Shown: one piece after another, positions 1,960 through 50,621 of the stretch | Layout: the number at the start of each line of letters is the position of its first letter | Position numbering within the stretch: position 1 is the stretch's first letter | DNA from: a virus | Lineage: Duplodnaviria; Heunggongvirae; Uroviricota; Caudoviricetes | Strand: one strand, 5' to 3' | Length of the DNA: 64,000 nt | IMG/VR virus record: IMGVR_UViG_3300031998_000037 | Made by a program: the position numbers and the translations under genes | The notes under the pieces: model-generated | What the model saw: the letters and a program-made list of their open reading frames with translations, nothing else | Database searches by the model: none | Told to the model about the DNA's origin: nothing

Positions 1960-1984
1960 AATTCCAAAAAAAAAGGAGAATACA

Positions 1985-2931: not shown

Positions 2932-3285
2932 ATGAGTAAGTTTATACGTACAGAAACTTATACATATCTGAATGAAGAATATTTTGAAAAGGGCGGCATC
3001 TATTATATCTACAACACTTTTGGCATGGAGTATATCGCTGTATGCACTGGCAAGAAGCCTGATGGTATACATCTTGTAAAAGTTTATAATTTGCCTATAG
3101 AGCAAAAGGACGAGACAGTTATTATACCAGACGATGAGATTATAATGAATGACAGCAATGTTTCATCATTTAAGACCTGTGAGAGAATTGAGCTTAAAGA
3201 AGATACCGACAAGTATGATCGCACAATTTCTTTCTTCTTTAAATTCTCTGCAAAGAAAGACGAGAAAAAGTCTGATGATGAATAA
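2932..3285 (+). CDS. hypothetical protein
   Basis: ORF with RBS AGGAGG. Confidence 0.35.
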   Translation: MSKFIRTETYTYLNEEYFEKGGIYYIYNTFGMEYIAVCTGKKPDGIHLVKVYNLPIEQKDETVIIPDDEIIMNDSNVSSFKTCERIELKEDTDKYDRTISFFFKFSAKKDEKKSDDE

Positions 3286-3884
3286 GAAAGATTGGACAGG
3301 CAATAAGACTTCTGTATTCTCTACATTAGCTGCAAGTAGTCATTCAAAAGATGATAGAGCAAATGACGACTATTATTGTACCCCCCCCCTATGCGGTTGA
3401 GGAACTTCTAAAACGTGAGACATTCAGCACTTATGTTTTAGAGCCTTCCGTTGGCGGAGGGCATATTGCAGAAGTCCTTGAAAGAAACGGTCATAAGATA
3501 CAAGCCTTTGATATTGTAGATCGTGGATATAACAAAACAGAAGTAAGGGACTTCTTAAATGTATCAAAAGAAGATGTCAAGTTTTCCCCTGATATCATCA
3601 CAAATCCTCCATATGCTTTGGCAAAAGAATTTGTTGAACACGCACTTGATATTTCTATGGACAGCACAAAGGTTGCAATGTTTCTTAAAATACAGTTCCT
3701 TGAAAGCAAGAAGCGGTATGAATTATTTAAGAAATATCCACCACGAAAAATATACGTGTTTGTTAACCGCGTTAATTGTGGTAAGAATGGTGTTTTTGGC
3801 AAAGAGTCAAGTGCTGTATGCTATGCATGGTTTGTATGGGTAAAGGGTTATAAAGGCTGTCCACAGGTAGATTGGATAGCATAA
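3275..3884 (+). CDS. phage Dam-family N6-adenine DNA methyltransferase, interrupted by a frameshift at a C9 tract (3381-3389); C8 would give the intact protein
   Basis: N-part 'DDYYCTPP' is in frame 2 and the C-part '...DIITNPPYALAKEF...' in frame 0, joined only across the poly-C; close paralog of the intact ORF 14571-15167. Confidence 0.7.
3381..3389. repeat. poly-C homopolymer (9 nt) inside a methyltransferase gene; candidate slipped-strand phase-variation tract
   Basis: seen in sequence; GC homopolymers this long are otherwise very rare in this AT-rich window. Confidence 0.8.
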
Positions 3885-4318: not shown

Positions 4319-5453
4319 TTGTGATAATGCTGCACAAAAGCCTTTAACCGAATCAGTAAAGCGAACCATAGTTAACTTTATTGATAATGAATTTGGCAAT
4401 CCTTCATCTATATATTCTAAAGGGCGCAACGCTAAACGTGCTCTTGAAGAAGCAAGAAGTCAGATTGCAGAATCAATAGGGGCTGACACAGACGAAATTT
4501 ATTTTACAAGTGGTAGCACCGAGGCAATCAACTGGCTTTATCATTCAACCAACAAACATATTCTGATTTCACCTATAGAGCACAAAGCTATTCTAAAAGG
4601 GAATGAAAATTATGATGGTATCTCTTACGGTTTGGACGTTAAACAAAATGGCGTTATAGATATTGAAAAACTTAAATATCTTTGTAATTGGGTACATGAC
4701 GATGGGGTTGCTATCATAGGTTGGGTAAATAATGAGATCGGTACAATTCAGCCTATAAAAGAAATAGCTAATATTTGCCACGCAAAAGGCGTTGAACTAT
4801 TCGTTGATGCTTCACAAGCTATCGGGCATATACCAATTAATGTGCATGAAATCGGGATGGATTATATGTGCGGTTCATTTCAGAAAATAGGCGGTTTGGC
4901 TGGTAGCGGTTTCCTTTATATAAAAAAAGGCAAAGGGTTCAATCCTATGTTATCTGGCGGATCACAAGAACGCGGCATGAGAGCTGGGACTGAAAACCTT
5001 TTAGGGGTAATGTGTGGTGCAACCGCGATATCCGAAGCAACTAAAAATCTAAGTGATAAAGTCTCCAGACAAAAAGAAATTCAAAGCAAAATTATCTCTG
5101 AACTTCTGAAACTCCCCAAAACACATTTGAATGGCGACTTATGTAATAGAGTTGCAAGCAATGTGAATATATGCTTTGAGGGTATTGAGGCTGAAAGTCT
5201 TGTGCTTCTGCTTGATTTAGATAATATTTGTGTTAGCAGTGGCTCTGCCTGTAACTCAGGTGATGTTAAGCCCAGCCATGTTTTGAAGGCGATAGGTCTT
5301 AGTGATGATAATGCTAAAGCAAGTATACGTATCACCTTTGATGACATGACGGATGATGAAATTGATTATCTTGTAGAGCGAATAAAGGCAAGAGTTAGTC
5401 AGTTAAGAGATATGTCCCCTAAATGGAAGGAGATATTCAATGCAAGTAATTGA
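4308..5453 (+). CDS. cysteine desulfurase (IscS/NifS family, class V aminotransferase)
   Basis: aligns along its whole length with IscS as recalled from memory: 'FTSGSTEAINW', 'NNEIGTIQPI', PLP lysine in 'SFQKIGG', 'SGGSQERGMRAGTEN', catalytic Cys in 'SSGSACNSGDVKPSHVLKAIGL', 'SIRITFDD..EIDYLVERI'. Confidence 0.8.
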   Translation: MQINCDNAAQKPLTESVKRTIVNFIDNEFGNPSSIYSKGRNAKRALEEARSQIAESIGADTDEIYFTSGSTEAINWLYHSTNKHILISPIEHKAILKGNENYDGISYGLDVKQNGVIDIEKLKYLCNWVHDDGVAIIGWVNNEIGTIQPIKEIANICHAKGVELFVDASQAIGHIPINVHEIGMDYMCGSFQKIGGLAGSGFLYIKKGKGFNPMLSGGSQERGMRAGTENLLGVMCGATAISEATKNLSDKVSRQKEIQSKIISELLKLPKTHLNGDLCNRVASNVNICFEGIEAESLVLLLDLDNICVSSGSACNSGDVKPSHVLKAIGLSDDNAKASIRITFDDMTDDEIDYLVERIKARVSQLRDMSPKWKEIFNASN

Positions 5454-5871
5454 AAATAAATATAACTCTGAGTCGCAAAAGGTAAAGTGTGAAGGATGCT
5501 CCAGCACATTTATAATTGATGAGTCAGATTTGAATATAGGCACATACGGCTGCAAGTTCTGGTCTTGTCCATATTGCGGTCAACAAAACTTGATTGACGA
5601 CAGTATTGAACTTACAGAAAGCAACTTTCAATTCCCTCAACACTTTGCAAGTTATAAAAATGGCAAACAGATAAGTAAAGATACTTTGCAAAAATGGGCG
5701 CAAGAAGCTTTATCCTTGCTTGACAAAGATCACAGTTTTGCTCTTCATGCCAGTGGTAATAGTCTTGTGTTTGCCTTTAAATCAGATTATGACGCACATG
5801 AGGCATCTGTGATAGTTTGTGATAACGGCTATTACGAAACCTATGTTAGTTTGCCAGAGGATAGGTTTTAA
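5440..5871 (+). CDS. hypothetical zinc-ribbon protein
   Basis: CEGC...CPYCG motif. Confidence 0.35.
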   Translation: MQVIENKYNSESQKVKCEGCSSTFIIDESDLNIGTYGCKFWSCPYCGQQNLIDDSIELTESNFQFPQHFASYKNGKQISKDTLQKWAQEALSLLDKDHSFALHASGNSLVFAFKSDYDAHEASVIVCDNGYYETYVSLPEDRF

Positions 5872-5971
5872 TACACAAATTCCAGTTTATAATATGGCAA
5901 ACGCCATGTTATATAGGCGTGTGATATTCACACAAAACACAATTTCCATAGAAAGGGTATGGTGATACACA

Positions 5972-6634
5972 ATGAAGAACTATTCTTCTAAAATCCGAAG
6001 TCTCCTCGCAAGAGGGACGAAAGCATTAGCATTAACATCTGTCTTACTCGCTACTGTAAGCTGCTCTCACGGTAAGACGGACACAGACACTTCCAGCAGC
6101 AGAAATGAGGTGACAACGACTTGTACAACTTCTACAACGACATCTACCTCTACAACATCAACAACGTCCTCTACGACAACAAGCACCGAGACAACGACGG
6201 CTGCGACGACGATGCCGACAACAACAATGATGACTGTGCAGGAGAATATTCAAGTGACTGAGTCTGTATATGTTGCTCCTGTTCAAGAGTATATTGAACC
6301 TGTGAACAGCAATCTTCCTATTACTGAGCGTGAAAGGGTTTTACTTTGTAATATTGTTGCAAATGAATATGGCTCAGACTGGGTAAGCGTCTATGACAAA
6401 GCTTGTGTTGTGGCAACTGTTATGAACCGTGTAAATAGCTCGCAATTCCCAAATGATATAGAAAGTGTCCTGACACAACCTCGTCAATTTACTGGCTATT
6501 GGGCAAGCGATAGTTATTATAGCACTGTTACAGACAGTTGCATAGAGGCAGTTGATTATTACTTTGCTCATCAAAATGAATTTGGTAATTACTTATATTT
6601 TGAAGGCGATGGGCGAGTGAATTATTTTCATTAA
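5972..6634 (+). CDS. secreted/lipoprotein cell-wall hydrolase (SleB/Hydrolase_2-like) with a Thr/Ser-rich linker
   Basis: signal peptide with a lipobox-like 'LATVSC', ~60-aa T/S low-complexity stretch, and C-terminal 'VVATVMNRVNSSQFPNDIESVLTQPRQFTGYW' that resembles the SleB family. Confidence 0.5.
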   Translation: MKNYSSKIRSLLARGTKALALTSVLLATVSCSHGKTDTDTSSSRNEVTTTCTTSTTTSTSTTSTTSSTTTSTETTTAATTMPTTTMMTVQENIQVTESVYVAPVQEYIEPVNSNLPITERERVLLCNIVANEYGSDWVSVYDKACVVATVMNRVNSSQFPNDIESVLTQPRQFTGYWASDSYYSTVTDSCIEAVDYYFAHQNEFGNYLYFEGDGRVNYFH

Positions 6635-8517: not shown

Positions 8518-10479
8518 ATGGCAAAAAAACAAACATCTACTATAAACGTTGGTATTACTTTAGATAAAGATTTTATTACCCAATACAATAAACTTCAAGC
8601 TGAGTACGGCACAGACATAGCAAGACTTAATGGCTTCGGTGACGATCAGCTTTCATATACAGATTTTATTGATAATTTTATTGATGATGATACAATTGCA
8701 GACGTAAGTATTGACGGCAATAGTAATGTCAGAAGAAAAGATATCGTGACACTGATAACAGAAATGCCAAAACCACACAGAAAGCTTCTTGCCTATAATA
8801 AGATTTACTATGAGTTCAAGAAAAAGTATGGCTTTAAGGCAGCAAATACGTGGCTTGAATATGAATGGTCTGGCAAGCTTTATCTCCATGACGCTGACAC
8901 TTCTTCTATGAAGCCTTACTGTTTTGCCTATGACCTTAAAGACCTTGCTGAAAGAGGGTTGTATTTCTTAGGCATAAACAATACTCAGCCAGCACAGCAC
9001 CTTACTACATTTGTTGATTTTGTAAAGGAGTTTATCTCTTTTGCAAGCAACAGAAGTAGCGGTGCGGTAGGCTTACCAAATATAATCCCGTATATGTTCT
9101 ATTATTGGCGCAAAGATGTCAAGTCTGATTATCTCGGAGTAAGAACAAGCGGCAATGAAAAGAAGTATGCTATTCAGAATTTCCAGAGATTTATCTACGC
9201 TGTCAATCAGCCGTGTGTACGTGATGGTCAGCAGTCAGCCTTTACCAATACAACTGTCTTTGATCGTCCTTACTTTGAAGCTCTTTTCGGCGGAACTGAG
9301 TTTCCTGACGGATCGTTTATGATTGATGCCGAAGAAGAAATAATTGAGTTTCAGAAATGGTATATGGAGACAATGGCTGAAATACGCAGCGAGAATATGT
9401 TTACATTCCCCGTATCAACTATTTCTCTTATTCGCAAGAACGGTAAGTTTGAGGATGAGGAATTTGCACATTGGGCAATTCGCCACAATATGAAGTGGTG
9501 CGATAGCAATATGTTTATTGACAAGGACGTAACTTCACTGTCAAATTGTTGTCGCCTTAAATCTCAGATTGATAACCTCGGCTACTTTAACAGTATCGGT
9601 GGAACAGCTTTAAAGGTTGGTTCAGTCAAAGTTGGCACAATCAATCTGGCTCGTATTGCACTTGATACTGAAAATGAAACTGAGTATCTTACAGAACTTA
9701 AAAAGCGTACCCTTATTGACTTAAAGGTACTTGATATAATCAGAGGCATTATAAAGAGAAATGTTGACAAGGGGCTTCTGCCTAACTTTACTTATGGGCT
9801 AATTGACTTTAAACATTTATATAATACAGTGGGCTTTACTGGTGTATATGAGAGCATGAAAAAGTTTGGCTATATCTCACGCGACTTATTCAATAATGTT
9901 TCCTATACAGAACAAGCCGAAAAGTTTGGTAAGAAGATATTCGATACCATACGCAAGACCGCCGATAAGTTCCTTGAAGATAACACTTGCGATTATCTTG
10001 TTTCACTTGAACAATCACCTGTAGAACAAGCGGCAAGCAAACTGATTCGTAAGGACAAGTTCTTCTATCCTGAGTCTGACATCTACGATTTGCCCGTATA
10101 TGGTAATCAGTTTATGCCACTCGGCATCAAGTCAATCTTACAAGAGAGAATAAGGGTTCAGGCTTTATTTGATGGTTTCTGTTCTGGCGGCAGCATACTT
10201 CATGCCAACATTGAAACGCCTTTTGACAGTTATGAAAAGGCATTGGCAATGACAGAGTATGTCGCAGATCAGGGGGTAACATACTTTGCATGGAACACAA
10301 AGATTTCTGCCTGTGAACATAATCACGCATTTCATGGCAAGATTTGCCCAAAGTGTGGTAAGCCTGTAAAAACAGAGTATACCCGTGTAGTCGGTTTTTA
10401 TACGCCGATTGAAAGCTGGTCAAGTGACCGTAAGGCGGAATATAAATTAAGACAATGGGAGGTAGTGAATGAAACTTAA
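8518..10479 (+). CDS. nrdD: anaerobic ribonucleoside-triphosphate reductase (class III RNR)
   Basis: 653 aa; C-terminal Zn-ribbon 'CPKCGKP' followed by the glycyl-radical motif 'TRVVGFYTP'. Confidence 0.75.
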   Translation: MAKKQTSTINVGITLDKDFITQYNKLQAEYGTDIARLNGFGDDQLSYTDFIDNFIDDDTIADVSIDGNSNVRRKDIVTLITEMPKPHRKLLAYNKIYYEFKKKYGFKAANTWLEYEWSGKLYLHDADTSSMKPYCFAYDLKDLAERGLYFLGINNTQPAQHLTTFVDFVKEFISFASNRSSGAVGLPNIIPYMFYYWRKDVKSDYLGVRTSGNEKKYAIQNFQRFIYAVNQPCVRDGQQSAFTNTTVFDRPYFEALFGGTEFPDGSFMIDAEEEIIEFQKWYMETMAEIRSENMFTFPVSTISLIRKNGKFEDEEFAHWAIRHNMKWCDSNMFIDKDVTSLSNCCRLKSQIDNLGYFNSIGGTALKVGSVKVGTINLARIALDTENETEYLTELKKRTLIDLKVLDIIRGIIKRNVDKGLLPNFTYGLIDFKHLYNTVGFTGVYESMKKFGYISRDLFNNVSYTEQAEKFGKKIFDTIRKTADKFLEDNTCDYLVSLEQSPVEQAASKLIRKDKFFYPESDIYDLPVYGNQFMPLGIKSILQERIRVQALFDGFCSGGSILHANIETPFDSYEKALAMTEYVADQGVTYFAWNTKISACEHNHAFHGKICPKCGKPVKTEYTRVVGFYTPIESWSSDRKAEYKLRQWEVVNET

Positions 10480-10942
10480 AGGTTTGATTGACGAGGATTT
10501 TGTGAATTATAAAAAGCCCTCTATGTTTATATCAACCTATACTTGTTCATTCAAATGTTGCGAGGAATGTGGTCAAGCGGTATGCCAAAACTTACCGCTT
10601 GTATCACAGCCTACAATTGAGGTTGATAATGCAGATTTGGCTGTGCGCTACCTTAATAATGATATAACCCATGCTGTTGTTATCGGCGGACTTGAACCAT
10701 TTGACGACTTTGCAGATTTAAACCGTTTTGTCACTTGTTTTCGTTCTTTCTGCAATGACGATATAGTGATCTATACTGGCTACAATGAAGATGAAATAAA
10801 GCATTATGTTGATAAGCTTAGATGGGTTCACAACCTTTACATTAAATATGGCAGATATATCCCTAATCAGCAGCCGCATTATGATGCCGCCCTCGGTGTT
10901 AAGCTTGCAAGCGACAACCAGAAAGGAGTTAAGGTATGCTGA
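10469..10942 (+). CDS. nrdG: anaerobic RNR activating protein (radical SAM)
   Basis: 157 aa directly downstream of nrdD, overlapping it; Cys cluster 'CSFKCCEEC' and 'GGLEP' motif. Confidence 0.6.
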   Translation: MKLKGLIDEDFVNYKKPSMFISTYTCSFKCCEECGQAVCQNLPLVSQPTIEVDNADLAVRYLNNDITHAVVIGGLEPFDDFADLNRFVTCFRSFCNDDIVIYTGYNEDEIKHYVDKLRWVHNLYIKYGRYIPNQQPHYDAALGVKLASDNQKGVKVC

Positions 10943-11330: not shown

Positions 11331-11570
11331 ATGAGCTATTACTGCGAAGTTTGCGGTCATATAGGTGGTCACGCTTACGGCTGCCCAGAAGCACCATCGC
11401 CCAAACCTGTAACATATTGTACCTACTGCGATGAGCCTTTATATATCGGTGATGAAGCTTATCAAGCTGGTAATGATATTTATTGTGCTCAGTGCTGCGG
11501 TAGGATTGAAATAGAAGAGCCTGAAAGAGACTGGGATTTTGAGATAGATAAAAGGAGAGAGAATGAGTAA
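11331..11570 (+). CDS. small zinc-binding protein (multiple CxxC)
   Basis: CEVCGH, CTYCDE, CAQCCG. Confidence 0.35.
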   Translation: MSYYCEVCGHIGGHAYGCPEAPSPKPVTYCTYCDEPLYIGDEAYQAGNDIYCAQCCGRIEIEEPERDWDFEIDKRRENE

Positions 11571-12515
11571 CGAAAATCTAAGAATGGCACGAAAGATTAA
11601 GAATGATGAGTTCTATAGCCGCTATGAAGATATAGAAAAAGAGCTTGTCCATTACAAAGATCAGCTACGCGGCAAGATTGTTTATTGCAACTGTGATATT
11701 CCTGAGAGCAACTTTGTCAAGTTCTTGAATGATGTCAAAGACGAATGGGGCATTCAAGATGTATGGCATACCTCGCTTGACGAGGGTATAAGCTTTGATA
11801 GTGATTATGCGAAAGACTTACTAAGCAAATGTGATGTGGTCATAACAAATCCTCCATTTTCAATCACAAGAGAAAGGTTCGTTCCTATGCTTGAAGAAAG
11901 CGGCAAACAGTTTCTCTTTATAGGCAATCTAAATATGGCAACTATGCGAGAAATATTTCCGCTGATCCGTGACGGCAAACTATGGACAGGCTATACGCAC
12001 CCTAAAGAGTTCCTACAGCCAGATGGCACATACAAAAAGTTTGGTAATTGTTTATGGTGGACTAATATGCCTGTAGAAAAAGAGTTTAGGCTTGACACAT
12101 CAAAAAAGTATTATGGTAATGAAAGTAAATATCCTCACTATGATAATTATGATGCCATTAATGTTGATAGAGTTGCTGATATTCCTTCAGATTATTCAGG
12201 CGTGATTGGCGTACCCGTTACGTTCATTGAACATTATACCCCCACCCCGACAAGATAGGAGGGGACTTCGGCTCAGTATTGTCGGATTTAGAAAGGGAGC
12301 AGACGGCAAAGACCTTCACGCCAACGGAAGATATTATTACGGCAGATACCTTATCGTTATTGGATCATAGATGTGATCTATATAACGAAGTAGGTAGGGG
12401 GGGGTACGACATACATACTTCCATCGCTTGCTCATTAAGAGTCGTTGACGCATTGAACTGTCCAAGTTTAAATAATGAAAAGATATTTAAAAGATTAATG
12501 ATAAGGAGATTATAA
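11563..12515 (+). CDS. N6-adenine DNA methyltransferase (NPPF motif), split by a frameshift at a C5AC4 tract (12239-12248); also carries an in-frame G8 tract (12397-12404)
   Basis: 'CDVVITNPPFS' motif IV. The frame-1 ORF stops at 12258, but frame 0 is open from 12231 to 12515, so a +1 C would fuse them to ~317 aa. Confidence 0.55.
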
Positions 12516-12517
12516 GA

Positions 12518-13044
12518 TTGAGCTTTTCAGAGTCGATAAAGACAAGCTTAGGAGGAGATGAATATTATACTCCTTCTAATGCGGTAGAAATGATTTTACC
12601 TGTGCTGCGCAAGCATAATTTTTCAAAAGTCTGGTGTCCATTTGATACTGCCGAAAGTAATTTTGTTGTAAAACTCAGCAAAGAATTTGAAGTAGTATAC
12701 GGTCATATTTATACTGGACAAGATTTCTTTGAATATGATACCCCCCCGAAGGTGTGGAATGTGTAGTAAGCAATCCGCCATTTAGTAAAAGAAATGATAT
12801 ATTTAAGAGGCTGTTTGAATGGGATATACCTTTTGCTCTTATTATGAATATGAACGGCATCTTTGATAGCAAAGAAAGATATGATTTGTTTAAAGATAAA
12901 CAGGTTGAGTTCTTTATACCAAAGGGTAGAATGAAATTCTTTACGCCTGATGGTGTTACAAAAAACTCGCCTAATTTTCAGAGTATTTATATTTGCAGTA
13001 AATTATTAGATAAACAACTTGAATTTTCTGAAAGTGAATTTTAA
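12518..13044 (+). CDS. phage Dam-family N6-adenine DNA methyltransferase, interrupted at a C7 tract (12741-12747); C8 would restore the frame
   Basis: N-part 'EYYTPSNAVE...YDTPP' (frame 2) and C-part 'ECVVSNPPFSKRNDIF' (frame 1) meet only across the poly-C. Confidence 0.65.
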
Positions 13045-13769
13045 AGGAGATGTAATGAGTAATATACAACTTTTTCAAGGGGACTGCTTGGAACTTATGA
13101 AAGATATACCAGACAAAAGTGTGGATTTAATTTTGACAGATTTACCTTACGGAACAACAGCTTGTAAGTGGGACAGCATAATTCCATTTGATTTACTATG
13201 GGGGGGGGTACGACCGTATCATAAAAGACGATGGTTGCATTGCTTTGTTTGGTAGCGAACCATTTTCTACGATGTTAAGATATAGCAATCTGAAGCATTT
13301 TAAATATGATTGGATATGGGAGAAAGAACAGGGTGCTAATTTTATGCTTTGTAAATATCAGCCCTATAAAGTACATGAAGTCATTTCTATCTTTGGCAAT
13401 AAGAAGATGCGTTATTATCCGCAAATGACCGCTGGCAAACCTTATATATCAGGCAAGGGTACAAGTGGTGATATTACAAACAATGTACCAAAGATACAGA
13501 CAGTTAATTCGGGTACAAGATATCCGCGAAGCATTCAAAAATTTAACACTCAAAAAAATCACTCGGTTCATCCAACTCAGAAGCCAGTGCCACTACTTGA
13601 ATACCTTATTAAGACCTATACAATTGAGGGTGACACAGTATTAGATAGTTGCATGGGCAGTGGCAGCACGGGCGTAGCTGCCGTCAATACAAATCGCAAC
13701 TTTATTGGCATGGAACTTGATGAGAAATATTTTCAGATTGCACAAACCAGAATTAAGGAGGCAACATAA
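13019..13769 (+). CDS. beta-class N6A/N4C DNA methyltransferase, interrupted at a G9 tract (13200-13208); G8 would restore the frame
   Basis: 'LILTDLPYG' motif IV first, then 'HPTQKP', then 'CMGSGSTG' motif I at the C-terminus. N-part 'FDLLWGG' is in frame 2 and C-part 'GGGYDRIIKDDG' in frame 0. Confidence 0.7.
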
Positions 13770-14570: not shown

Positions 14571-15167
14571 ATGGGCTTAACCGCAGCGAAGCTTGCTGGC
14601 AGTGATCCGACAAGAGGCAGAATGAAGAACGATTATTATGCTACCCCTCCCATTGCGACTGAACTTCTTTTGAAAGAAGTGAAACTATATGATGATACTA
14701 TTTTAGAACCAGCAGCAGGTGAAGGTCATATTGTTAAAGTGCTGAAAGAATTTTACCCTTATAATGAGATAACAGCTAATGATTTAGTTTACCGCAGTAG
14801 TCGTATAGGCATTGATGTGAACGGCGGCATAGATTTCCTTACATATGAACCACACCGCAAATTTGATACTATCATTACAAACCCACCTTTTAATCAGGCA
14901 AAAGAGTTTATTGAGAAAGCATTGACGCTTGCAAATCATTACGTCATTATATTTGCCAAGCTTCAATTTCTGGAGACTGTTGAACGCCGCAAGCTGTTTG
15001 ACGAATATCCACCTAAGTATGTTTATGTACATAGCCGTCGTGTTAGCCCGTATATAAATGGTGATCCTGTAGATGAAAAGGGTAAGCCGTGGGCAAGTCC
15101 TATGGCGTTTGCTTGGTTTGTGTGGGAGATAGATTATGAAGGAGAGACAACATTAAGATGGTTATAA
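14571..15167 (+). CDS. phage Dam-family N6-adenine DNA methyltransferase (intact)
   Basis: 'DYYATPP' and 'TIITNPPFNQAKEF'; paralog of the 3275-3884 gene. Confidence 0.7.
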   Translation: MGLTAAKLAGSDPTRGRMKNDYYATPPIATELLLKEVKLYDDTILEPAAGEGHIVKVLKEFYPYNEITANDLVYRSSRIGIDVNGGIDFLTYEPHRKFDTIITNPPFNQAKEFIEKALTLANHYVIIFAKLQFLETVERRKLFDEYPPKYVYVHSRRVSPYINGDPVDEKGKPWASPMAFAWFVWEIDYEGETTLRWL

Positions 15168-16070: not shown

Positions 16071-16111
16071 TTTTCCAAAAAAATGATATAGGAGGGATAT
16101 GTAAAAACAAA

Positions 16112-16988: not shown

Positions 16989-18062
16989 TCAAAAATTTTC
17001 TCTTTGTTTATCACGTTCAGCCTTTAACATAGCCCTAAAATAACTGTAACGGTTAGCGATATTTTGCTGTTCAGATATAGCATTAAAGTGAGTATATTGT
17101 TCCTGTAAATAATGATACCTTGCAAACCCAATGCCAAGAGGATGTTCAGGCATATCCGTAGAAAATACAATTGCAAGCAGACTTTCCATTTCTTTTACTG
17201 AAAATTCATTATTACAAGCACCTGAGAAAAAGTCAAGTTCAACATCTTGTGTCTCTATTTCTTCTTTAATCTTGTCAACATCAATTAAATCTGAAAATCC
17301 CTCAAAGATAGGAATTTGTTTTTGAGCTGGTTCATTTTTAGTGATAGTAAACACAATAGATATCCACCTACCACCTGCACCTGTCTTGCCGCGCTCATAG
17401 GTATAGCTAATGTCTGTAAGTTCCTTTAAAGCCTTTTGACAGCTATCGAGTACATACTTTTTAAATAAAGACCAACCATTTTTATTTGAATATTCAGTTT
17501 CGGCAATACCGAGCAATTCTCTAAGTTCTTTTACAGGTATCTCTCTCTTCCCTATATTCTCGTATTGTTTTAAAATTTCATACATTCTAATTTGATTTGC
17601 TGATTTAAGGATCAGTGCATTCCAAAGTTCGTACTTAAAATATCTCTCTTTAAAATCAAACATTAAAGGCAATGCTTTATCGTGGGCATCTATCTGAACA
17701 TACCATTCGCCGTCCTCATTCTTATCAACTTCACATTCTTTAAAAAGCTGAAATCCAGAATATCCGCCACTCTCTTTTGGTATATTGACAACCTTACAAA
17801 GTAAGCTATTAGTGCTTGATTTAAGTTGCTGAATATTCATTCTACTAAACCCCATGATCTTCTGGAAGTCAGACAGTGGGAATCGAACAATTCTTGTTGA
17901 CTCATCTCTGGGGTTTATCTTAGATAGATAAATCGAAAAAAAGCGTAACTCTTGTAAGGATAGATTATTGGCTCTAATCTCGTTAAGGATATTTCTTTTT
18001 TCTACTATAGCTCCCTCATAAATAGTAGACATATATATCACCTCAATATTATTATAACACAC
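16989..18062 (-). CDS. rep: plasmid-type replication initiator (RepA_N-like)
   Basis: 357 aa whose N-terminal region resembles Firmicute theta-plasmid RepA_N; iterons lie immediately upstream. Confidence 0.6.
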   Translation of the reverse strand: MCYNNIEVIYMSTIYEGAIVEKRNILNEIRANNLSLQELRFFSIYLSKINPRDESTRIVRFPLSDFQKIMGFSRMNIQQLKSSTNSLLCKVVNIPKESGGYSGFQLFKECEVDKNEDGEWYVQIDAHDKALPLMFDFKERYFKYELWNALILKSANQIRMYEILKQYENIGKREIPVKELRELLGIAETEYSNKNGWSLFKKYVLDSCQKALKELTDISYTYERGKTGAGGRWISIVFTITKNEPAQKQIPIFEGFSDLIDVDKIKEEIETQDVELDFFSGACNNEFSVKEMESLLAIVFSTDMPEHPLGIGFARYHYLQEQYTHFNAISEQQNIANRYSYFRAMLKAERDKQRENF

Positions 18063-18063
18063 A

Positions 18064-18215
18064 TTCTATAGATTGTCAATGCTATCTATAGTATTATGCA
18101 ATGAAATCTATAGAATCGTGCAATACAATCTATAGTATCTTGCAATGAAATCTATAGAATTGTGCAATACAATCTATAGAATTGTGCAATACAATCTATA
18201 GAATCGATTCCGCAA
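18064..18215. repeat. iteron array: ~7 tandem 22-bp repeats (consensus AATCTATAGAATYGTGCAATAC)
   Basis: counted by eye at 22-bp periodicity, directly upstream of rep; 2 further copies at 18411-18448. Confidence 0.8.
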
Positions 18216-18410
18216 AGGTGCTATTTTAGGTCGTTTACGATAACCGAAAATATATATAAAATAAATAAAATACTTCTAAAACATCTTTCAAACTATCATG
18301 GAGCAAAAACTGATATTAATTTAAGACTTAAAGAAATAAAATTGGCAAAACAACCAAAACATAAATATAAAATTCATTATCAAACGAATTATAAAGTACA
18401 ATTCAATCAT
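18216..18410. other. AT-rich spacer between iteron groups (putative DNA unwinding element/origin)
   Basis: extreme AT content between the two iteron sets. Confidence 0.5.
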
Positions 18411-18448
18411 CTATAGAATTGTGCAATCAAATCTATAGAATTGAAAAT
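18411..18448. repeat. two additional iterons (ATCTATAGAATTG...)
   Basis: same repeat family as 18064-18215. Confidence 0.7.
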
Positions 18449-18652
18449 TAATGTCCGTAATTTAGAAAATCAATGTCCGTAATTAAAACTTTATGTTAAA
18501 ATTAAATGGCATTATTTGATGACTAAATTTGTCTTTTGCAGATAAATGTCCTATTTTATTATACGCAAAATAGGCAAGAAAAACACTTTGCAGAAATCTG
18601 TCCTATTTAGAAAATCAATGTCCGTAATTAAGAAAATTTATGTCCGTAATTA
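18447..18652. repeat. parS-like repeats: 4 copies of ATGTCCGTAATTA plus 2 degenerate TGTCCTATTT copies, downstream of parB
   Basis: copies at 18447, 18469, 18617 and 18639; the pairs are spaced 22 bp apart. Confidence 0.6.
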
Positions 18653-18664
18653 ATCTTGTTTAAC

Positions 18665-19867
18665 TTACGAGCAATGATTATTCCTATAACTATCCATCAA
18701 TTCCTGAATAGTTTTAAGTTCCTCAGCAGGGTTCATATCCAGCAATCTTTTGATTGCGGTATCAACGGCTTGAACTTCCTTGATAATCTTTTTGCTTTGA
18801 GCGATCTTGCCAGACTTATCCTTCTGAGCATCGTCAAGTCCCTTTTCGGCAGAGAAGATAGTATTCGTAAATATCTTCTTTACCTCACTATTTTGCTTTT
18901 GAGTTTTGAGATCAATGTCGCGGTCAAGCTGTTCAAGAGCTGCATTGTACTTAGCAACACTCTTTTCAATACTTGCCTTACGGGATTCAAGCTCAGGCGA
19001 TTGTTCTATATCAAGCTCCTTGTTGATATTTGCAAGCTCCTCATTTGCTTGTAAAAGCCTTCCATTATAATACATACGCGAGGTTTTATCTTTTGAAAGA
19101 GAAGTGTTTGTCTTTGAAATAATATTCTTAGCCTGTTTTGCAAAAGCGAGTGTGTGCTCGATAGCATATTTCTTAGTCTCAGGATCAGCGTTGTCCGCAG
19201 CCTTTAGAATATCATTGGCATAGTTCTGATATTCTTCTGGGAGCTGCGCAAGTGAAGCAGCCGTGTTGATATCAATAGCATCCGCATAGAGCAATTCCTT
19301 TAAAGGATTGATAAGCTCAGACGTAATGGCGATAAGCTTATTAGCCTGACGTTCACTGACATTAAAAGCCTGTGAAACATACTCTTTAAATTTTTGAGCC
19401 GCCTCTCGTTCAGCGGTTTCATCAAACTGCTTTATCTTAGCGAGAAAGCCTTCAATGATTTGAACCTTTTCTTCAATGCTATATTCTCTTGTTTCACTAT
19501 TGGCAAAGAAAAGCATTTTGAGAATTTCGAGCTGAGAAAGATTGCTTCTTACAGTCGCCTTAATCTTATCGCGTCCGAGGTACTTGACAGCCTTTGTGCG
19601 GCGTTCTCCAGATATGAGCAAGTATTTCGTAGGCTCTATCTTTGCAACCACAATATTATGCAGCAAGCCGTTCTCTTTGATATTCTCAGCAAGTTCTGCA
19701 ATGCCCTCGTCAGAGTCGCCCATATTGAAAATGTTATCCTGATTAAAAACGATTTGATCTATGGGGATAATATCAGTTGTCTCGATAGACTCCTGTTCCT
19801 TTTTGACGCTATCAGCAAGCTCATTAAAGCGGCTCAACGCCTTGTCGGTGTTTAACTTCTTAGCCAT
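18665..19867 (-). CDS. parB: ParB-family partition protein
   Basis: N-terminal ParB/Srx-like box ending in 'GERRTKA'; long helical C-terminus; translationally coupled to parA. Confidence 0.7.
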   Translation of the reverse strand: MAKKLNTDKALSRFNELADSVKKEQESIETTDIIPIDQIVFNQDNIFNMGDSDEGIAELAENIKENGLLHNIVVAKIEPTKYLLISGERRTKAVKYLGRDKIKATVRSNLSQLEILKMLFFANSETREYSIEEKVQIIEGFLAKIKQFDETAEREAAQKFKEYVSQAFNVSERQANKLIAITSELINPLKELLYADAIDINTAASLAQLPEEYQNYANDILKAADNADPETKKYAIEHTLAFAKQAKNIISKTNTSLSKDKTSRMYYNGRLLQANEELANINKELDIEQSPELESRKASIEKSVAKYNAALEQLDRDIDLKTQKQNSEVKKIFTNTIFSAEKGLDDAQKDKSGKIAQSKKIIKEVQAVDTAIKRLLDMNPAEELKTIQELMDSYRNNHCS

Positions 19868-20664
19868 TAATTAACGCCCCCTAAAATGATATTTTCAAGC
19901 TCCTCAGCGACAGCCAGATAATCAGCCGTGACTTTTTCATTCTTGGCATAATTTATCAATGGGTTGTGATCCGTAAGGCTCTTCTCTACAATGGTCGTCT
20001 TTCTGATCTCGGTATTAAAGAAATGGTATGATGTAAGATTAGCCTTGAATTGTTCAAGGTAAAAGTTCTGAGCTGCCGTGTTCTCCTTCTTTGTAAAAAG
20101 CAGCCCAGCGATTTTGAGATTTGGGTTGACATATTGCTGAATGTTTGTGATAAATTCATTCATGGCGAAGATACTGTCAATGCCGTACTCAGTCGCCTCG
20201 CAAGGCAGCACGGTATAGTTACTTGCTGTGAGGGCGTTTGTGGTTAAATTATTACGTGCAGGTGGGCAGTCGATAAAAACATATTCATATTCATCCTGTA
20301 TCTCTGTAAGCTTATTCTTTAAAATAAACTCTCTTGCTATTGGCAAAGCTGATAATTCAGTATCAGCCTTATCCAGATTGACGTTAGACGGCAGCAAATC
20401 AAGCCCGTCAATGTCAGTACCTATGGTAGCTTTACGGACGCTTAAATCGCCACATATGACATTGTAGACGCTTACCTCGTCTTTGCTGAGAAACTTTCCG
20501 AGGTAAGTTGTGGCATTTGCTTGCGGATCAAGGTCAACAAGTAGCACCTTTTTGTTTTTAATTTTAGCAAATATTGCAGCAAGGTTTACACTCGCCGTGG
20601 TTTTGCCAGCACCACCTTTACGGTTCAATAAAGAAATCGTAATCATTAATTTTGCTCCTTTCAC
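19867..20664 (-). CDS. parA: ParA/Soj-family partition ATPase
   Basis: deviant Walker A 'NRKGGAGKTT', 'VLLVDLDPQ'. Confidence 0.85.
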   Translation of the reverse strand: MKGAKLMITISLLNRKGGAGKTTASVNLAAIFAKIKNKKVLLVDLDPQANATTYLGKFLSKDEVSVYNVICGDLSVRKATIGTDIDGLDLLPSNVNLDKADTELSALPIAREFILKNKLTEIQDEYEYVFIDCPPARNNLTTNALTASNYTVLPCEATEYGIDSIFAMNEFITNIQQYVNPNLKIAGLLFTKKENTAAQNFYLEQFKANLTSYHFFNTEIRKTTIVEKSLTDHNPLINYAKNEKVTADYLAVAEELENIILGGVN

Positions 20665-49094: not shown

Positions 49095-50621
49095 TCACTT
49101 ATAATCTGAATTTGAATTAGGGTTGTCTACAGTGTTTTCAGAAGGTGAGTCCGTTTGTGGTCTGCCTCCCTCGTTACCGACTTCGCCGTTACTAAGCGTA
49201 TTACTACTTATAAGTGGGCGGTTGTATATATCAACGCCGCATTTGAGAATTGTGTTCTCCAGATAGCTTGCCGTATATGCATCTATCGGTTCTTGACCAA
49301 GTGCGGCAGCGTACCATAATTTCGACGGCAGCCCATACATTGCTGATTTCTGTAGTCTGTTTGCAACCTCATCTTTATTGAAACTATATTGTTCAAGAAA
49401 ATAGATTTCAAATAAATAATCATCATGTATCGACATTTCTCTTTGATATTTTACATTAAATACTCTTTCAATTTGACGTAGCAACTTCATCATCATAGTC
49501 GCATCAACTATGAGTGACAATTCAATTACCTTATAAGTAGGATTTGCACCTACGCCAAACAAAAGAGGGGATATACCAACATTATTGAATAAGTCTTTAG
49601 TCGCATCTTCCGTATAGTCTTTTTGAGCGTTAGTTGTATCTTTGAGAGTAATGCCTTGTGCCTTAAATGGATTGACGGCAATTCCAATTCCTTCTGGAAC
49701 TGCGCCAGCTATCTGCGTCCAATACTTTTGAATTTGTTCAAATGAAAGGGCTGGGTTGCCGTCGCTATCAGTCTCAACAGTATAATTGATAAGTTTATAG
49801 TTATCAAGAATAGCACCGTCCTTCTGAATTTCTTCATAAGTCTGAAGGTCTATGATAGCCTTGAAACAACCAGCAAGAGGTGGAATGATAAAGGGATATT
49901 CCTCATCAAACTTTACACAAATTTGTTTCTTAGGAATAAACCACCGCAGCGTTCTATCACCAGTAATACCCTTTTCTTCATCACCTTTATATAATGAATA
50001 TGCTTTTATAAATTCTCTACCATAAGAGGGGAGCAGTGCCTTAGTCTTTTTAGTGTCAAAATAACTAAGATCAAATGCAAATCGCCACACTCCGTTTTCA
50101 ACAGCCGCTAACTTACAGAACTTATGCAATAGAGGTTTTAAAAAGAAGCTGCGCTTATCCTCAATCATAAGACCATAATACACGCCATCTACAAGTGTGC
50201 GCAACATAACTTGTGGGTTAATATCCTTAAACTTAAAACGACTGCATTGTAAAGCATAGTTGATATATTCTTGCTCAAAATCATCTTTATCAATATTCTT
50301 TATATTTGCAATGGGGCGAATAACATAATTGTTAGTTAGGATTGTTGCAAGCATTATAATTGCTCTGCGGTAATGCGGCGAGATAGCAAAATAAAAACGG
50401 CTTACCTCTCGCAATACTTCTTCTGATCTGGGATTTGTAGGATCAGCTAATGCACCAAGAATAATCTTGCGTGGGTATTTTTTAAGGAACACGCACACTT
50501 CATCCATACTTTGTTTCAGATCAAGAAGCACATCTGAACGTAGCTTTGCAAATCTTTTGAGACTATATATCTCTTTTAATTCATCTCTTTCTTCCAAATA
50601 ATTCACCCCTTTCTTAATCAT
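49095..50621 (-). CDS. putative portal protein
   Basis: 508 aa immediately downstream of the large terminase. Confidence 0.45.
   Translation of the reverse strand: MIKKGVNYLEERDELKEIYSLKRFAKLRSDVLLDLKQSMDEVCVFLKKYPRKIILGALADPTNPRSEEVLREVSRFYFAISPHYRRAIIMLATILTNNYVIRPIANIKNIDKDDFEQEYINYALQCSRFKFKDINPQVMLRTLVDGVYYGLMIEDKRSFFLKPLLHKFCKLAAVENGVWRFAFDLSYFDTKKTKALLPSYGREFIKAYSLYKGDEEKGITGDRTLRWFIPKKQICVKFDEEYPFIIPPLAGCFKAIIDLQTYEEIQKDGAILDNYKLINYTVETDSDGNPALSFEQIQKYWTQIAGAVPEGIGIAVNPFKAQGITLKDTTNAQKDYTEDATKDLFNNVGISPLLFGVGANPTYKVIELSLIVDATMMMKLLRQIERVFNVKYQREMSIHDDYLFEIYFLEQYSFNKDEVANRLQKSAMYGLPSKLWYAAALGQEPIDAYTASYLENTILKCGVDIYNRPLISSNTLSNGEVGNEGGRPQTDSPSENTVDNPNSNSDYK

What the first reader, a model, noticed from the sequence alone, without database searches (positions are those of the whole stretch)
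12231..12404. C5AC4 tract splits an NPPF MTase (11563-12515), which also carries an in-frame G8 tract
The frame-1 ORF stops at 12258, but frame 0 is open from 12231 through to 12515, so inserting one C fuses a ~317-aa protein. Its C-terminal part carries a G8 run encoding 'GRGGYD'. The beta-class MTase at 13200 has the same GGGGGGGTACGAC string encoding 'GGGYD'. So the region holds two hypermutable tracts. A 7-bp inverted repeat CCGACAA...TTGTCGG (12247-12284) flanks the junction.
Basis: seen in the sequence. Interest (0 to 1): 0.7.

Follow-up and report, generated by a model that had tools for sequence, protein, structure and literature searches.

The report
Repeat-switched methyltransferase genes in a phage
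An uncultured phage-plasmid has four DNA methyltransferase genes interrupted by slippage-prone runs of C or G, and in the flagged gene the run length decides whether the enzyme is cut short or gets one of two alternative tail ends, which is probably a bet-hedging switch for how the phage marks its DNA.

Summary
The sequence facts in the finding are correct.

The window has just four G/C runs of 7 or more bases: C9 at 3381, G8 at 12397, C7 at 12741 and G9 at 13200. All four lie in DNA methyltransferase genes, and three of them break the reading frame.

A 95%-identical relative differs from the window by 1-2 nt at the C9, C7 and G9 runs and at the flagged C5AC4 junction. No other frame-breaking coding indel occurs in 15 kb.

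The flagged gene (M1, PF13651) works as a three-way switch:
- **As sequenced:** it stops at 12258.
- **Minus one C:** it gains a canonical C-terminal module ending at 12370 (268 aa). The nearest in-frame relatives (98%, ~95% and 93% identical) are in this state.
- **Plus one C:** It reads a stop-free, unconstrained linker through the G8 run to a short tail.

In more distant relatives this read-through frame reaches further genuine C-terminal modules, gated by more poly-G and (AG)n repeats.

The best reading is slipped-strand contingency loci in phage methyltransferases, and probably a switch of the variable C-terminal module. The 7-bp inverted repeat is chance. This is a new variant of a known kind.

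The parts
11563..12258 (+). M1 N-terminal catalytic ORF (231 aa, NPPF motif), as sequenced ending at TAG 12256-12258. This is the truncated/OFF phase.
   Evidence: Pfam PF13651 EcoRI_methylase, E 1e-63. 7944 homologues found. Variable columns by codon position are 61/32/175 of about 223 each, the signature of purifying selection.
12239..12248 (.). Junction repeat C5-A-C4 in the Pro codons after GVPVTFIEHY. It is the frame selector of M1.
   Evidence: Same position in relatives: C4AC4 (L013, module A), C4AC7 (L001, A), C9 (L175, A), C8 (L173, read-through), C9 (L174, read-through), C8 (L017/L018, truncated)..
12249..12370 (+). Module A, the canonical C-terminal module (RRGLRLSIVGFRKGADGKDLHANGRYYYGRYLIVIGS*) in frame 2. 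Reached by -1 or +2 nt at the junction, giving a 268-aa enzyme.
   Evidence: P0001 (269 aa, 98% identical) and P0002 (268 aa, 93%) read this frame. BLASTP to the C-termini of distant non-switching homologues P0075/P0064: 48-52% identity, E 9e-6 to 8e-5. Codon-position variability in this frame is 15/7/20 of about 35 each.
12231..12515 (+). Frame-0 open frame of 95 codons.
   Evidence: Only 1 of 2893 off-frame stretches in this phage is this long. Homologues P0005, P0007, P0011, P0014, P0017-20, P0026, P0028 and P0039 read the same frame. AlphaFold: residues 234-287 have pLDDT below 50.
12397..12404 (.). G8 run inside the read-through frame (GRGGYD). It is in frame with the tail and is the position of a second switch in relatives.
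   Evidence: G9 at the same place in L001 (by A-to-G substitution, same total length), L173 and L174. Absent in L175, L009 and L014.
12429..12515 (+). Tail of the read-through form (IACSLRVVDALNCPSLNNEKIFKRLMIRRL*). It is what remains after a 114-nt in-frame deletion of the V module. Its last codons overlap the ribosome-binding site of the next gene.
   Evidence: AlphaFold strands at residues 292-298 and 311-316, pLDDT 86-92. R311 aligns with the invariant Arg of the family's terminal YxRILI strand. Deletion seen against L175. BLASTP is only weak, E 0.07-0.1.
12518..13044 (+). M2, a small NPPF methyltransferase split into 12518-12766 and 12754-13044.
   Evidence: C8 would restore a 175-aa protein. 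phrog_799 DNA methyltransferase, E 1e-27. Intact 175-aa gene in L175/L176.
12741..12747 (.). C7 run that breaks M2.
   Evidence: C9 in L001 and L009 (both out of frame). Interrupted CCCCTCCC and in frame in L175/L176.
13055..13769 (+). M3, a beta-class N6/N4 methyltransferase split into 13055-13255 and 13188-13769.
   Evidence: With G8 the 237-aa product hits PF01555 at E 6e-29 and phrog_67 at E 3e-78.
13200..13208 (.). G9 run that breaks M3. G8 would read LLWGGYDRIIK.
   Evidence: G7 in L001. The family normally has LWEQY here (78 of about 112 sequences). WGGY or WEGY occurs only in the nearest relatives, so the run is recent.
3275..3884 (+). M0, an NPPY methyltransferase split into 3275-3400 and 3351-3884.
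   Evidence: C8 restores a 202-aa protein. phrog_799, E 1e-64. Called intact at 202 aa in L001.
3381..3389 (.). C9 run that breaks M0, in DYYCTPP.
   Evidence: C8 and in frame in L001. C8 plus loss of a T, out of frame, in L005/L007.
14571..15167 (+). M4, a tract-free intact paralogue of M0 that serves as an internal control.
   Evidence: phrog_799, E 7e-59. Its TPP is coded ACC CCT CCC, with no homopolymer.
12247..12285 (.). 7-bp inverted repeat CCGACAA...TTGTCGG. Judged to be chance and not part of the mechanism.
   Evidence: Fold z-score -0.39, and the repeat is not used in the minimum-energy structure. Not conserved in L175.

Best explanation
The C and G runs are slipped-strand (simple-sequence-repeat) contingency loci inside phage-encoded orphan DNA methyltransferases. 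Gain or loss of one base during replication moves each gene between reading frames.

For M0, M2 and M3 this is an ON/OFF switch, and all three are OFF in this window.

For the flagged gene M1 the junction repeat selects among three outcomes:
1. A protein truncated at 12258. This is the state sequenced here, and it is probably inactive because the last beta-hairpin is missing.
2. The catalytic domain joined to canonical module A, ending at 12370.
3. The catalytic domain joined, through an unconstrained stop-free linker that is the other-frame reading of module A, to whatever lies downstream.

In this lineage the downstream element is only a short tail, gated by the G8 run. In relatives it is a series of further genuine C-terminal modules (H, V, K and one more), gated by additional poly-G and (AG)n repeats.

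These modules are the variable part of an otherwise 92-98% identical enzyme. I therefore infer that they set target recognition, so that the repeats diversify which DNA motifs the phage population methylates. That would be a bet-hedge against hosts with different restriction systems and methyl-dependent restriction systems.

**Shown:** the tracts, their non-random placement, their length polymorphism between close genomes, both frames used in nature, and the module homologies.

**Inferred:** the switching rate, enzymatic activity of each form, any change of specificity, and the selective benefit.
For: **Placement and composition of the tracts**
- There are 4 long G/C runs against about 0.23 expected, and all lie in methyltransferase genes, P about 8e-6.
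- The tracts use codons that are otherwise rare and never doubled in this phage.

**Length polymorphism**
- Between the window and L001 (95.3% identical over 15 kb) there are only 8 indels. Four sit in the methyltransferase tracts. The other four are one 3-nt in-frame indel near the start of the 1931-2920 ORF and three indels that lie outside my ORF map (two at 5873-5910, between ORFs 5440-5871 and 5972-6634; one in an A run at 16077, between 16045 and 16112).
- Three assemblies, one JGI metagenome and two separate SRA runs, are 100% identical to the window. A fourth is 99.9% identical over 20 kb. All carry the same tract lengths wherever they cover a tract, so the lengths are not random assembly noise.

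**Junction states seen in nature**
- Truncated: window, L017/L018.
- Module A: L001, L013, L175, L020/L021.
- Read-through: L173, L174, L015/L016.

**Intactness of the gene halves**
- Both halves of each split gene are intact ORFs, and the M1 N-terminal domain shows purifying selection (61/32/175 variable columns).
- A 93% relative has M1, M2 and M3 all in frame, with the M2 tract interrupted and the M3 tract absent.

**Module evidence**
- Modules A, H, K and V match the extreme C-termini of distant non-switching family members, E 9e-6 to 3e-10.
- N-terminal domains 92-98% identical carry at least six different C-termini.
- In the overlap, frame 2 shows the coding pattern of variability and frame 0 does not, yet frame 0 stays stop-free in all relatives examined.
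- In the AlphaFold model of the +1C form the catalytic domain has pLDDT above 90, the linker below 50 and the tail 86-92.
- (AG)n varies between 5, 8, 8 and 11 units among relatives.
Against: - No read-level data, so heterogeneity within a population and reversibility are not shown.
- The window's own M1 junction is an interrupted C5AC4 tract, which should slip rarely. Four assemblies of this strain show one fixed state, so in this lineage M1 may be effectively locked OFF.
- OFF states dominate at uninterrupted tracts, which is also what decay would give: M2 is in frame in 0 of 3 (window, L001, L009), and M3 in 0 of the 2 loci examined at DNA level (window, L001), although two close protein homologues (P0122, P0124) are intact with WGGY.
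- The M3 tract is evolutionarily recent.
- The window's read-through tail has only weak homology, and the AlphaFold placement is guided by the alignment.
- No structure or biochemistry exists for this family. No PDB sequence match was found and only weak fold matches. The claim that C-terminal modules determine specificity is therefore inference.
Confidence: 0.7

Rival explanations
1. The methyltransferases are dispensable and decaying. Homopolymer runs are simply where the first disabling mutations land, with no adaptive switching.
For: Most uninterrupted tracts are out of frame. All four are OFF in the window, and M2 and M3 are OFF in L001. The M3 run arose recently from LWEQY. The window lineage has lost 114 nt of a module. 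L005/L007 replaced M1-M3 with a different methyltransferase. The C5AC4 tract is short and interrupted.
Against: Decay does not explain why an AT-rich genome with no other G/C run above 5 built runs of 7-9 in four of its five methyltransferases from rare codons. It does not explain why no second lesion is seen in any half-gene, nor any other frame-breaking coding indel across 15 kb. It also does not explain why the tract position is kept across relatives of 70-98% identity with both frames intact, or why frame 0 is kept stop-free.
Confidence: 0.15
2. The DNA is as intended, and the frames are joined at the RNA or protein level. Transcriptional slippage on C9/G9 runs, or ribosomal frameshifting, would make a mixture of products from one genome.
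For: Runs of 9 identical bases are classic slippage sites (established knowledge). The phage encodes its own two-barrel RNA polymerase, PF05183 at E 1.7e-13, of unknown fidelity. One strain keeps the same out-of-frame lengths in four assemblies.
Against: In-frame DNA alleles exist in close relatives (M0 C8 in L001; M1 in L001, L013 and L175), which recoding would make unnecessary. There is no significant RNA structure at the M1 junction, z = -0.39, and no Rfam element. C5AC4 and C7 are short for efficient transcriptional slippage. This mechanism could also act alongside DNA slippage rather than instead of it.
Confidence: 0.1
3. The frameshifts are homopolymer sequencing or assembly errors, and the genes are intact in reality.
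For: Homopolymers are error-prone, and the data are metagenome assemblies.
Against: Identical lengths were recovered from a JGI assembly, two separate SRA runs and an ENA assembly wherever they cover a tract. No gene is broken at the longer and far more numerous A/T runs. A 2007-aa ORF and 36 other long ORFs are intact. Differences from L001 include 2-nt changes.
Confidence: 0.05

Closest known systems
Poly-G tract in the Type I specificity gene hsdS of Neisseria gonorrhoeae NgoAV, and SSR-bearing hsdS genes generally (Atack et al., PMC7383803; Adamczyk-Poplawska 2011, as cited there)
   Same: A repeat inside the gene decides which recognition module is translated. The result is a change of product form rather than plain ON/OFF, and 'extended' versus 'truncated' forms are described.
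   Different: There the switch is in a separate specificity subunit of a Type I restriction system in a bacterium, and it chooses full-length versus half. Here it sits in a single-chain orphan EcoRI-like methyltransferase of a phage. The alternatives are encoded in overlapping reading frames, with the other-frame reading of one module used as a linker to the next. Up to three repeats occur in series in relatives. A change of specificity is not demonstrated here.
Phase-variable Type III mod, Type IIG and other methyltransferases of Haemophilus, Neisseria, Helicobacter and Campylobacter (phasevarions; PMC4889913, PMC3936762)
   Same: Homopolymeric G/C runs within the coding sequence give ON/OFF switching, with tract lengths differing between close strains. 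M0, M2 and M3 look exactly like this.
   Different: Those are chromosomal genes of host-adapted bacteria, usually paired with restriction activity and shown to control regulons. Here the genes belong to a phage-plasmid, four occur in one 12-kb stretch, and no regulon or restriction partner was seen.
Phage contingency loci: poly-G tracts in Fletchervirus receptor-binding proteins (Sorensen 2021) and repeats in T-even phages (bioRxiv 10.1101/2025.10.21.683753). The preprint also notes a poly-G tract in a methylase gene of Bordetella phage BPP-1.
   Same: Slippage-prone repeats in phage genes generate subpopulations as a bet-hedge. A poly-G run in a phage methylase has been noted before.
   Different: The characterised cases concern receptor binding or other functions. 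According to the preprint, the BPP-1 methylase tract was noted but not studied. Multiple repeat-bearing methyltransferases in one phage, and frame-selected alternative C-termini, did not turn up in my four literature searches.
PF13651 EcoRI-like adenine methyltransferases with fixed C-termini (for example homologues P0064, P0075, P0065, P0093)
   Same: Same catalytic domain, and the same C-terminal module types (A, H, K) as single fixed ends.
   Different: Those have one module and no repeat at the junction. The window's family stacks several modules behind repeats.

Membership tests
Simple-sequence-repeat contingency (phase-variable) locus | A repeat tract of a length known to slip, located inside the coding sequence | tested here: met
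   C9, C7, G9 and G8 lie within methyltransferase ORFs. The M1 junction itself is only C5AC4 in the window, but C7-C9 in relatives.
Simple-sequence-repeat contingency (phase-variable) locus | Tract length differs between otherwise near-identical genomes, in steps that change the frame | tested here: met
   Window versus L001: C9/C8, C5AC4/C4AC7, C7/C9, G9/G7. These are 4 of only 8 indels in 15 kb.
Simple-sequence-repeat contingency (phase-variable) locus | The sequence on both sides of the tract remains an intact, selected ORF | tested here: met
   Restored products are full-length and hit their families. Codon-position variability is 61/32/175.
Simple-sequence-repeat contingency (phase-variable) locus | High-frequency, reversible switching within a clonal population | not testable with these tools
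   Needs reads or culture. Assemblies give only the consensus.
PF13651 EcoRI-like N6-adenine DNA methyltransferase (M1) | Profile match above the curated cut-off, and the catalytic NPPF motif | tested here: met
   216 bits against a cut-off of 26.4. NPPF at residues 96-99 is invariant in alignment A2.
PF13651 EcoRI-like N6-adenine DNA methyltransferase (M1) | Complete C-terminal beta-hairpin ending in the YxRILI-type strand | tested here: not met
   As sequenced, the ORF stops 16 residues after GVPVTF. The feature is met only after -1 nt (module A) or +1 nt (tail).
PF01555 N6/N4 DNA methylase (M3) | Profile match across the whole domain | tested here: met
   After G9 is changed to G8: E 6e-29, profile positions 1-220 of 221. 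As sequenced, the gene is split.
Type I HsdS specificity-subunit repeat switch (NgoAV type) | The gene is an HsdS with two target-recognition domains flanking the repeat, and acts with HsdM | tested here: not met
   M1 is a single-chain methyltransferase. It gave no HsdS family hit, and no hsdM or hsdR is among the called genes of the near-identical locus L004. It works like this system but is not a member.
Phasevarion | Switching of the methyltransferase changes expression of a set of genes | not tested
   No expression data are available.
Programmed ribosomal frameshift or transcriptional slippage site | A slippery sequence with a stimulatory downstream RNA structure, conserved tract length, and no in-frame DNA alleles | tested here: not met
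   Fold z = -0.39. Tract length is not conserved, and in-frame alleles exist. Slippage by the polymerase itself is not excluded.

The most novel reading that the evidence does not exclude
The M1 family may be a 'frameshift shufflon'. One catalytic domain is followed by up to four or five alternative target-recognition modules packed into three overlapping reading frames. The lengths of two or three repeats in series (poly-C or poly-G, then (AG)n, then poly-G) determine which module is attached. A single phage lineage could then generate a combinatorial set of methylation specificities, plus OFF, by replication slippage alone. With three further ON/OFF methyltransferases nearby, one phage-plasmid could produce dozens of epigenetic types.
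Probability: 0.35. Interest if true: 0.8.

Novelty: new variant of a known kind. Interest (0 to 1): 0.66.

Why it matters
Repeat-driven switching of methyltransferases is a well-established way for bacteria to vary their epigenome. In phages, contingency loci are only now being recognised, and mostly for receptor binding.

A phage-plasmid with four repeat-bearing methyltransferases would show that phages also hedge on how their DNA is marked. This bears directly on escape from restriction and from methylation-dependent defences, and on host range in gut and rumen-type communities.

The M1 architecture would also be an unusually compact way to encode alternative protein ends: overlapping frames, with one module's off-frame reading serving as the linker to the next.

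There is a practical consequence for annotation. These genes are routinely called as fragments or as differently sized 'hypothetical proteins', so pipelines under-count them. The many 230-, 268- and 300-394-aa 'variants' in protein databases are phases of the same gene.

Tried and rejected
- **Inverted repeat as a frameshift stimulator or recombination site:** rejected. Fold z = -0.39, the repeat is not used in the best fold, and it is not conserved.
- **AlphaFold on the +1C fusion without an alignment:** uninformative, pLDDT 40.6. Repeated with a 78-sequence alignment.
- **Pfam alone:** could not tell the two candidate C-termini apart, 216.2 versus 215.3 bits. Real homologues were needed.
- **Cultured-phage collection:** no close relative. 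Nucleotide search gave at most 16% coverage, and the terminase is only 25-31% identical to phages of Bacillota.
- **IMG/VR:** a single-protein scan found only 37%-identical relatives, and a degenerate DNA pattern for the junction found nothing.
- **Genome collection:** best hits are only 45-46% identical (gut/rumen Alphaproteobacteria, Saccharibacteria and Lachnospiraceae MAGs). The host remains unresolved.
- **Solved structures:** no sequence match to the PDB and only weak Rossmann-fold matches by Foldseek. There is no structural basis for saying where the DNA-recognition element lies.
- **Promoter/terminator scan and Rfam over the region:** nothing above background.
- **Shared G-run+TACGAC 14-mer as evidence of common origin between M1 and M3:** considered, but there is no extended similarity. 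In M3 the Tyr is the conserved family residue. Left as an unexplained recurrence.
Full report
**1. The observation**

The region was read directly and translated in all frames. All the stated sequence facts hold.
- The ORF from 11563 ends at TAG 12256-12258 (231 aa).
- The tract is C5 (12239-12243), A, C4 (12245-12248).
- Frame 0 is open from 12231 to TAA 12513-12515.
- Inserting one C gives a 317-aa product.
- G8 (12397-12404) reads GRGGYD in that frame.
- The next-but-one gene has G9 (13200-13208) followed by the same TACGAC.
- The 7-bp inverted repeat exists at 12247-12253 and 12279-12285.

**2.

- The 64-kb window (37.7% G+C) has only four G/C runs of 7 or more, and none of length 6: C9 at 3381, G8 at 12397, C7 at 12741 and G9 at 13200.
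- Extrapolating the run-length distribution predicts about 0.23 such runs.
- All four lie in DNA methyltransferase genes, which cover 5.3% of the window (P about 8e-6).
- Five methyltransferases are present.
  - M0, 3275-3884: phrog_799, E 1e-64.
  - M1, 11563 onward: PF13651, E 1e-63.
  - M2, 12518-13044: phrog_799, E 1e-27.
  - M3, 13055-13769: PF01555, E 6e-29.
  - M4, 14571-15167: intact, with no tract.
- C9 breaks M0 (C8 restores 202 aa). C7 breaks M2 (C8 restores 175 aa). G9 breaks M3 (G8 restores 237 aa).
- The runs are built from codons that are rare here: CCC is 9.8% of Pro codons and GGG is 7.2% of Gly codons.
- These codons are never doubled elsewhere: 0 of 9 Pro-Pro and 0 of 67 Gly-Gly dicodons. 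The tract-free paralogue M4 codes the same TPP as ACC CCT CCC.

**3. Are the lengths real, and do they vary?**

- Exact-protein look-ups recovered the same phage from other data sets.
- A JGI metagenome contig and contigs from two separate SRA runs are 100% identical to the window. An ENA assembly is 99.9% identical over 20 kb. All have the same tract lengths wherever they cover a tract. The out-of-frame lengths are therefore the reproducible consensus of this strain, not assembly noise.
- A second strain, L001, is 95.3% identical over 15 kb and differs at every slippage-prone site.
  - M0: C8, in frame, called as 202 aa.
  - M1 junction: C4AC7.
  - M2: C9.
  - M3: G7.
- In that 15-kb comparison there are about 690 substitutions but only 8 indels. 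Four of the indels are these tracts. The others are one 3-nt in-frame change near the start of the 1931-2920 ORF and three that fall outside my ORF map: two at 5873-5910 and one in an A run at 16077.
- Further strains add more states.
  - C4AC4 at the M1 junction in L013.
  - C9 in M2 in L009.
  - C8 plus loss of a T in M0 in L005/L007.
  - A 93% relative, L175/L176, in which M1, M2 and M3 are all in frame. There M2 has an interrupted CCCCTCCC and M3 has the family-typical LWEQY with no run.
- In the M3 family, LWEQY is the rule (78 of about 112 sequences). WGGY and WEGY occur only in the nearest relatives, so that run is recent.

**4. What M1 really is**

- A search with the N-terminal 227 residues gave thousands of homologues. 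After the invariant GVPVTFIEHYxPP they split into two kinds that read the same DNA in different frames.
- **Type A (267-269 aa).** This includes the 98% and 93% relatives. It continues ...RLxIVGFRKGxDGKDLxANGRYYYxRYL and stops. In the window this is frame 2, ending at 12370, reached by deleting one C.
- **Type B (300-394 aa).** It continues ...GGxFGSExxDxEKEQTxKT..., passes a GGG (poly-G), and ends in a different module.
- All three outcomes occur in nature at the same junction.
  - Truncated: window C5AC4; L017/L018 C8.
  - Type A: L013, L001, L175 C9; L020/L021, where the switch is a G8 located 12 nt further on.
  - Type B: L173 C8; L174 C9; L015/L016 G7.
- Two relatives with no run at the junction (L009, L014) are fixed in type A.

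**5. The downstream modules**

- Three-frame translation of relatives shows a series of C-terminal modules.
  - A.
  - H: FKLIGHEHD...GKGVYKRIL.
  - V: FSLIGVTEENGVGLSGGG/RQPNSPAHAYVKGKRKYTRLLI, with an internal G6-G9.
  - K: YKILGIANNRRYVGDFPCYTFINGKSVYNRVLIQRI.
  - At least one more.
- These modules lie in different, partly overlapping frames.
- They are separated by poly-G runs and by an (AG)n repeat of 5, 8, 8 or 11 units.
- Each module type is also the single, fixed C-terminus of distant family members that have no repeats. BLASTP E-values are 9e-6 for A, 2e-9 for H, 3e-10 for K and 2e-5 for V, always at the very end of the target.
- N-terminal domains that are 92-98% identical are found joined to at least six different C-termini. 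This is the pattern expected for a conserved catalytic core with a variable recognition element.

**6. Which frame is selected in the overlap?**

- Across six strains the N-terminal domain varies at codon positions 1/2/3 in 61/32/175 of about 223 columns each.
- In 12262-12367 the figures in frame 2 (module A) are 15/7/20 of about 35 each. This is still the coding pattern.
- In frame 0 the most variable position would be the second. Module A is therefore the selected reading there, and frame 0 is an unconstrained linker.
- Frame 0 is nonetheless stop-free in all relatives examined.
  - The off-frame stop frequency in this phage is 9.6% per codon.
  - Only 1 of 2893 off-frame stretches reaches the 95 codons of the window's frame-0 ORF.
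- This fits selection to keep a passage open to the downstream modules.

**7. The window's own read-through form is a reduced one**

- Relative to L175, L009 and L014, the window and L001 carry an in-frame 114-nt deletion. It removes the core of module V and leaves IACSL-RVVDALNCPSLNNEKIFKRLMIRRL.
- This tail matches family C-termini only over its last 11-15 residues (E 0.07-0.1), and the linker matches nothing.
- AlphaFold results:
  - Without an alignment the run was useless (pLDDT 40.6).
  - With a 78-sequence alignment, residues 1-230 score above 90.
  - In the same model the linker (234-287) scores below 50.
  - The last 28 residues form a beta-hairpin at 86-92.
  - The Arg of KRLMI aligns with the family-invariant Arg.
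- The fold is suggestive, but it is guided by the alignment.
- There is no solved structure for the family.

**8. Mechanism and rivals**

- The best-supported reading is DNA-level slipped-strand mispairing at contingency loci.
  - M0, M2 and M3 would switch ON/OFF.
  - M1 would switch between truncated, module A and read-through.
- That the modules set target specificity, and that the benefit is escape from varied restriction and methyl-dependent defences, is inference.
- Decay without function is the main rival. OFF states dominate, and the window's C5AC4 is interrupted and probably nearly locked.
- Decay does not explain several features:
  - the building of rare-codon runs in four of five methyltransferases;
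  - the absence of any second lesion;
  - the conservation of the tract position;
  - the stop-free off-frame.
- Recoding at the RNA level cannot be excluded and could co-exist with DNA slippage, since the phage encodes its own two-barrel RNA polymerase. However, in-frame DNA alleles exist, and there is no RNA structure or Rfam element.
- Sequencing error is excluded by reproducibility across runs and by the integrity of all other genes.

**9. Comparison with what is known**

- Repeat-controlled methyltransferases are classic in bacteria. The nearest logic is the poly-G in hsdS of NgoAV and related Type I systems, where the repeat decides which recognition domains are translated (PMC7383803).
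- In phages, contingency loci have been described for Campylobacter phage receptor-binding proteins and recently for T-even phages. A poly-G in the BPP-1 methylase was noted but not studied (10.1101/2025.10.21.683753).
- My four literature searches turned up no case of several repeat-bearing methyltransferases in one phage. They also turned up no case of alternative C-termini stacked in overlapping frames behind serial repeats.
- I therefore rate this a new variant of a known kind.

**10. Verdict**

The tract does split a methyltransferase and the +1C frame is genuine. But the canonical restoration is -1 into another frame, the system has more tracts and more states than proposed, slippage at G8 is not shown, and the inverted repeat is chance.
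- Interest is moderate to high.

Noticed in passing
window 16989-20664 (minus strand), with 50614-52470: Rep3-type replication initiator (PF01051, E 2e-23), ParB (PF02195) and a ParA/CbiA-type ATPase sit beside a large terminase and structural genes. The element looks like a phage-plasmid rather than an integrating prophage.
   Followed up: partly
window 60265-62904 (minus strand): An 879-aa protein hits PF05183, the eukaryotic-type RNA-dependent RNA polymerase family (E 1.7e-13). This is a YonO/crAss-like two-barrel RNA polymerase encoded by the phage. Its slippage behaviour on C9/G9 templates is unknown and bears on the recoding rival.
   Followed up: no
window 12397-12410 and 13200-13214; L174 1651-1665 and 1828-1840; L173 3068-3080: Poly-G runs are repeatedly followed by TAC-GA: G8-TACGAC, G9-TACGAC, G9-TACGAT, G7-TACGAG and G7-TACAAG. 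The coding contexts are unrelated. There is no extended similarity around them and the recurrence is unexplained. It could be a context preference, gene conversion or chance.
   Followed up: partly
L015 4823, L016 957, L020 846, L021 675: An (AG)n dinucleotide repeat of 8, 8, 11 and 5 units, read as RSRERERE, lies between module A and the H/V modules in relatives. It acts as a further frame selector and is absent from the window.
   Followed up: partly
window 12426-12447 versus L175 3339-3474: The window and L001 carry an in-frame 114-nt deletion that removes the core of a C-terminal module present in L175, L009 and L014.
   Followed up: yes
window 12481-12517: The last codons of the read-through frame (KRLMIRRL*) overlap the AGGAG ribosome-binding site of M2. 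The stretch TTTAAAAGAyTnATGATAAGGAG (y = C/T, n = any) is kept, with one or two further differences, in L009, L175 and L014, even though L014 has a different downstream gene. L173, which also has a different downstream gene, is more diverged there.
   Followed up: partly
L005 and L007, 10233-11012: In two 96%-identical relatives the whole M1-M2-M3 block is replaced by a single 259-aa PF01555 methyltransferase, so this position is a swap site for methyltransferase cassettes.
   Followed up: no
L014 5026; window 12476-12482: An A7 versus A6 run inside the tail (NNEKIF) shifts the frame in L014, so A runs may add further states.
   Followed up: no
window 8518-10942: A class III anaerobic ribonucleotide reductase, NrdD with its activase, together with terminase similarity only to phages of Bacillota at 25-31%, points to an anaerobic Bacillota host. 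The genome scan gave no direct host match.
   Followed up: partly
window 1966-1974: An A9 run lies immediately before an AGGAG upstream of the band-7 gene. It is the longest A/T run in the window, possibly a spacing-type switch or just a ribosome-binding-site context.
   Followed up: no
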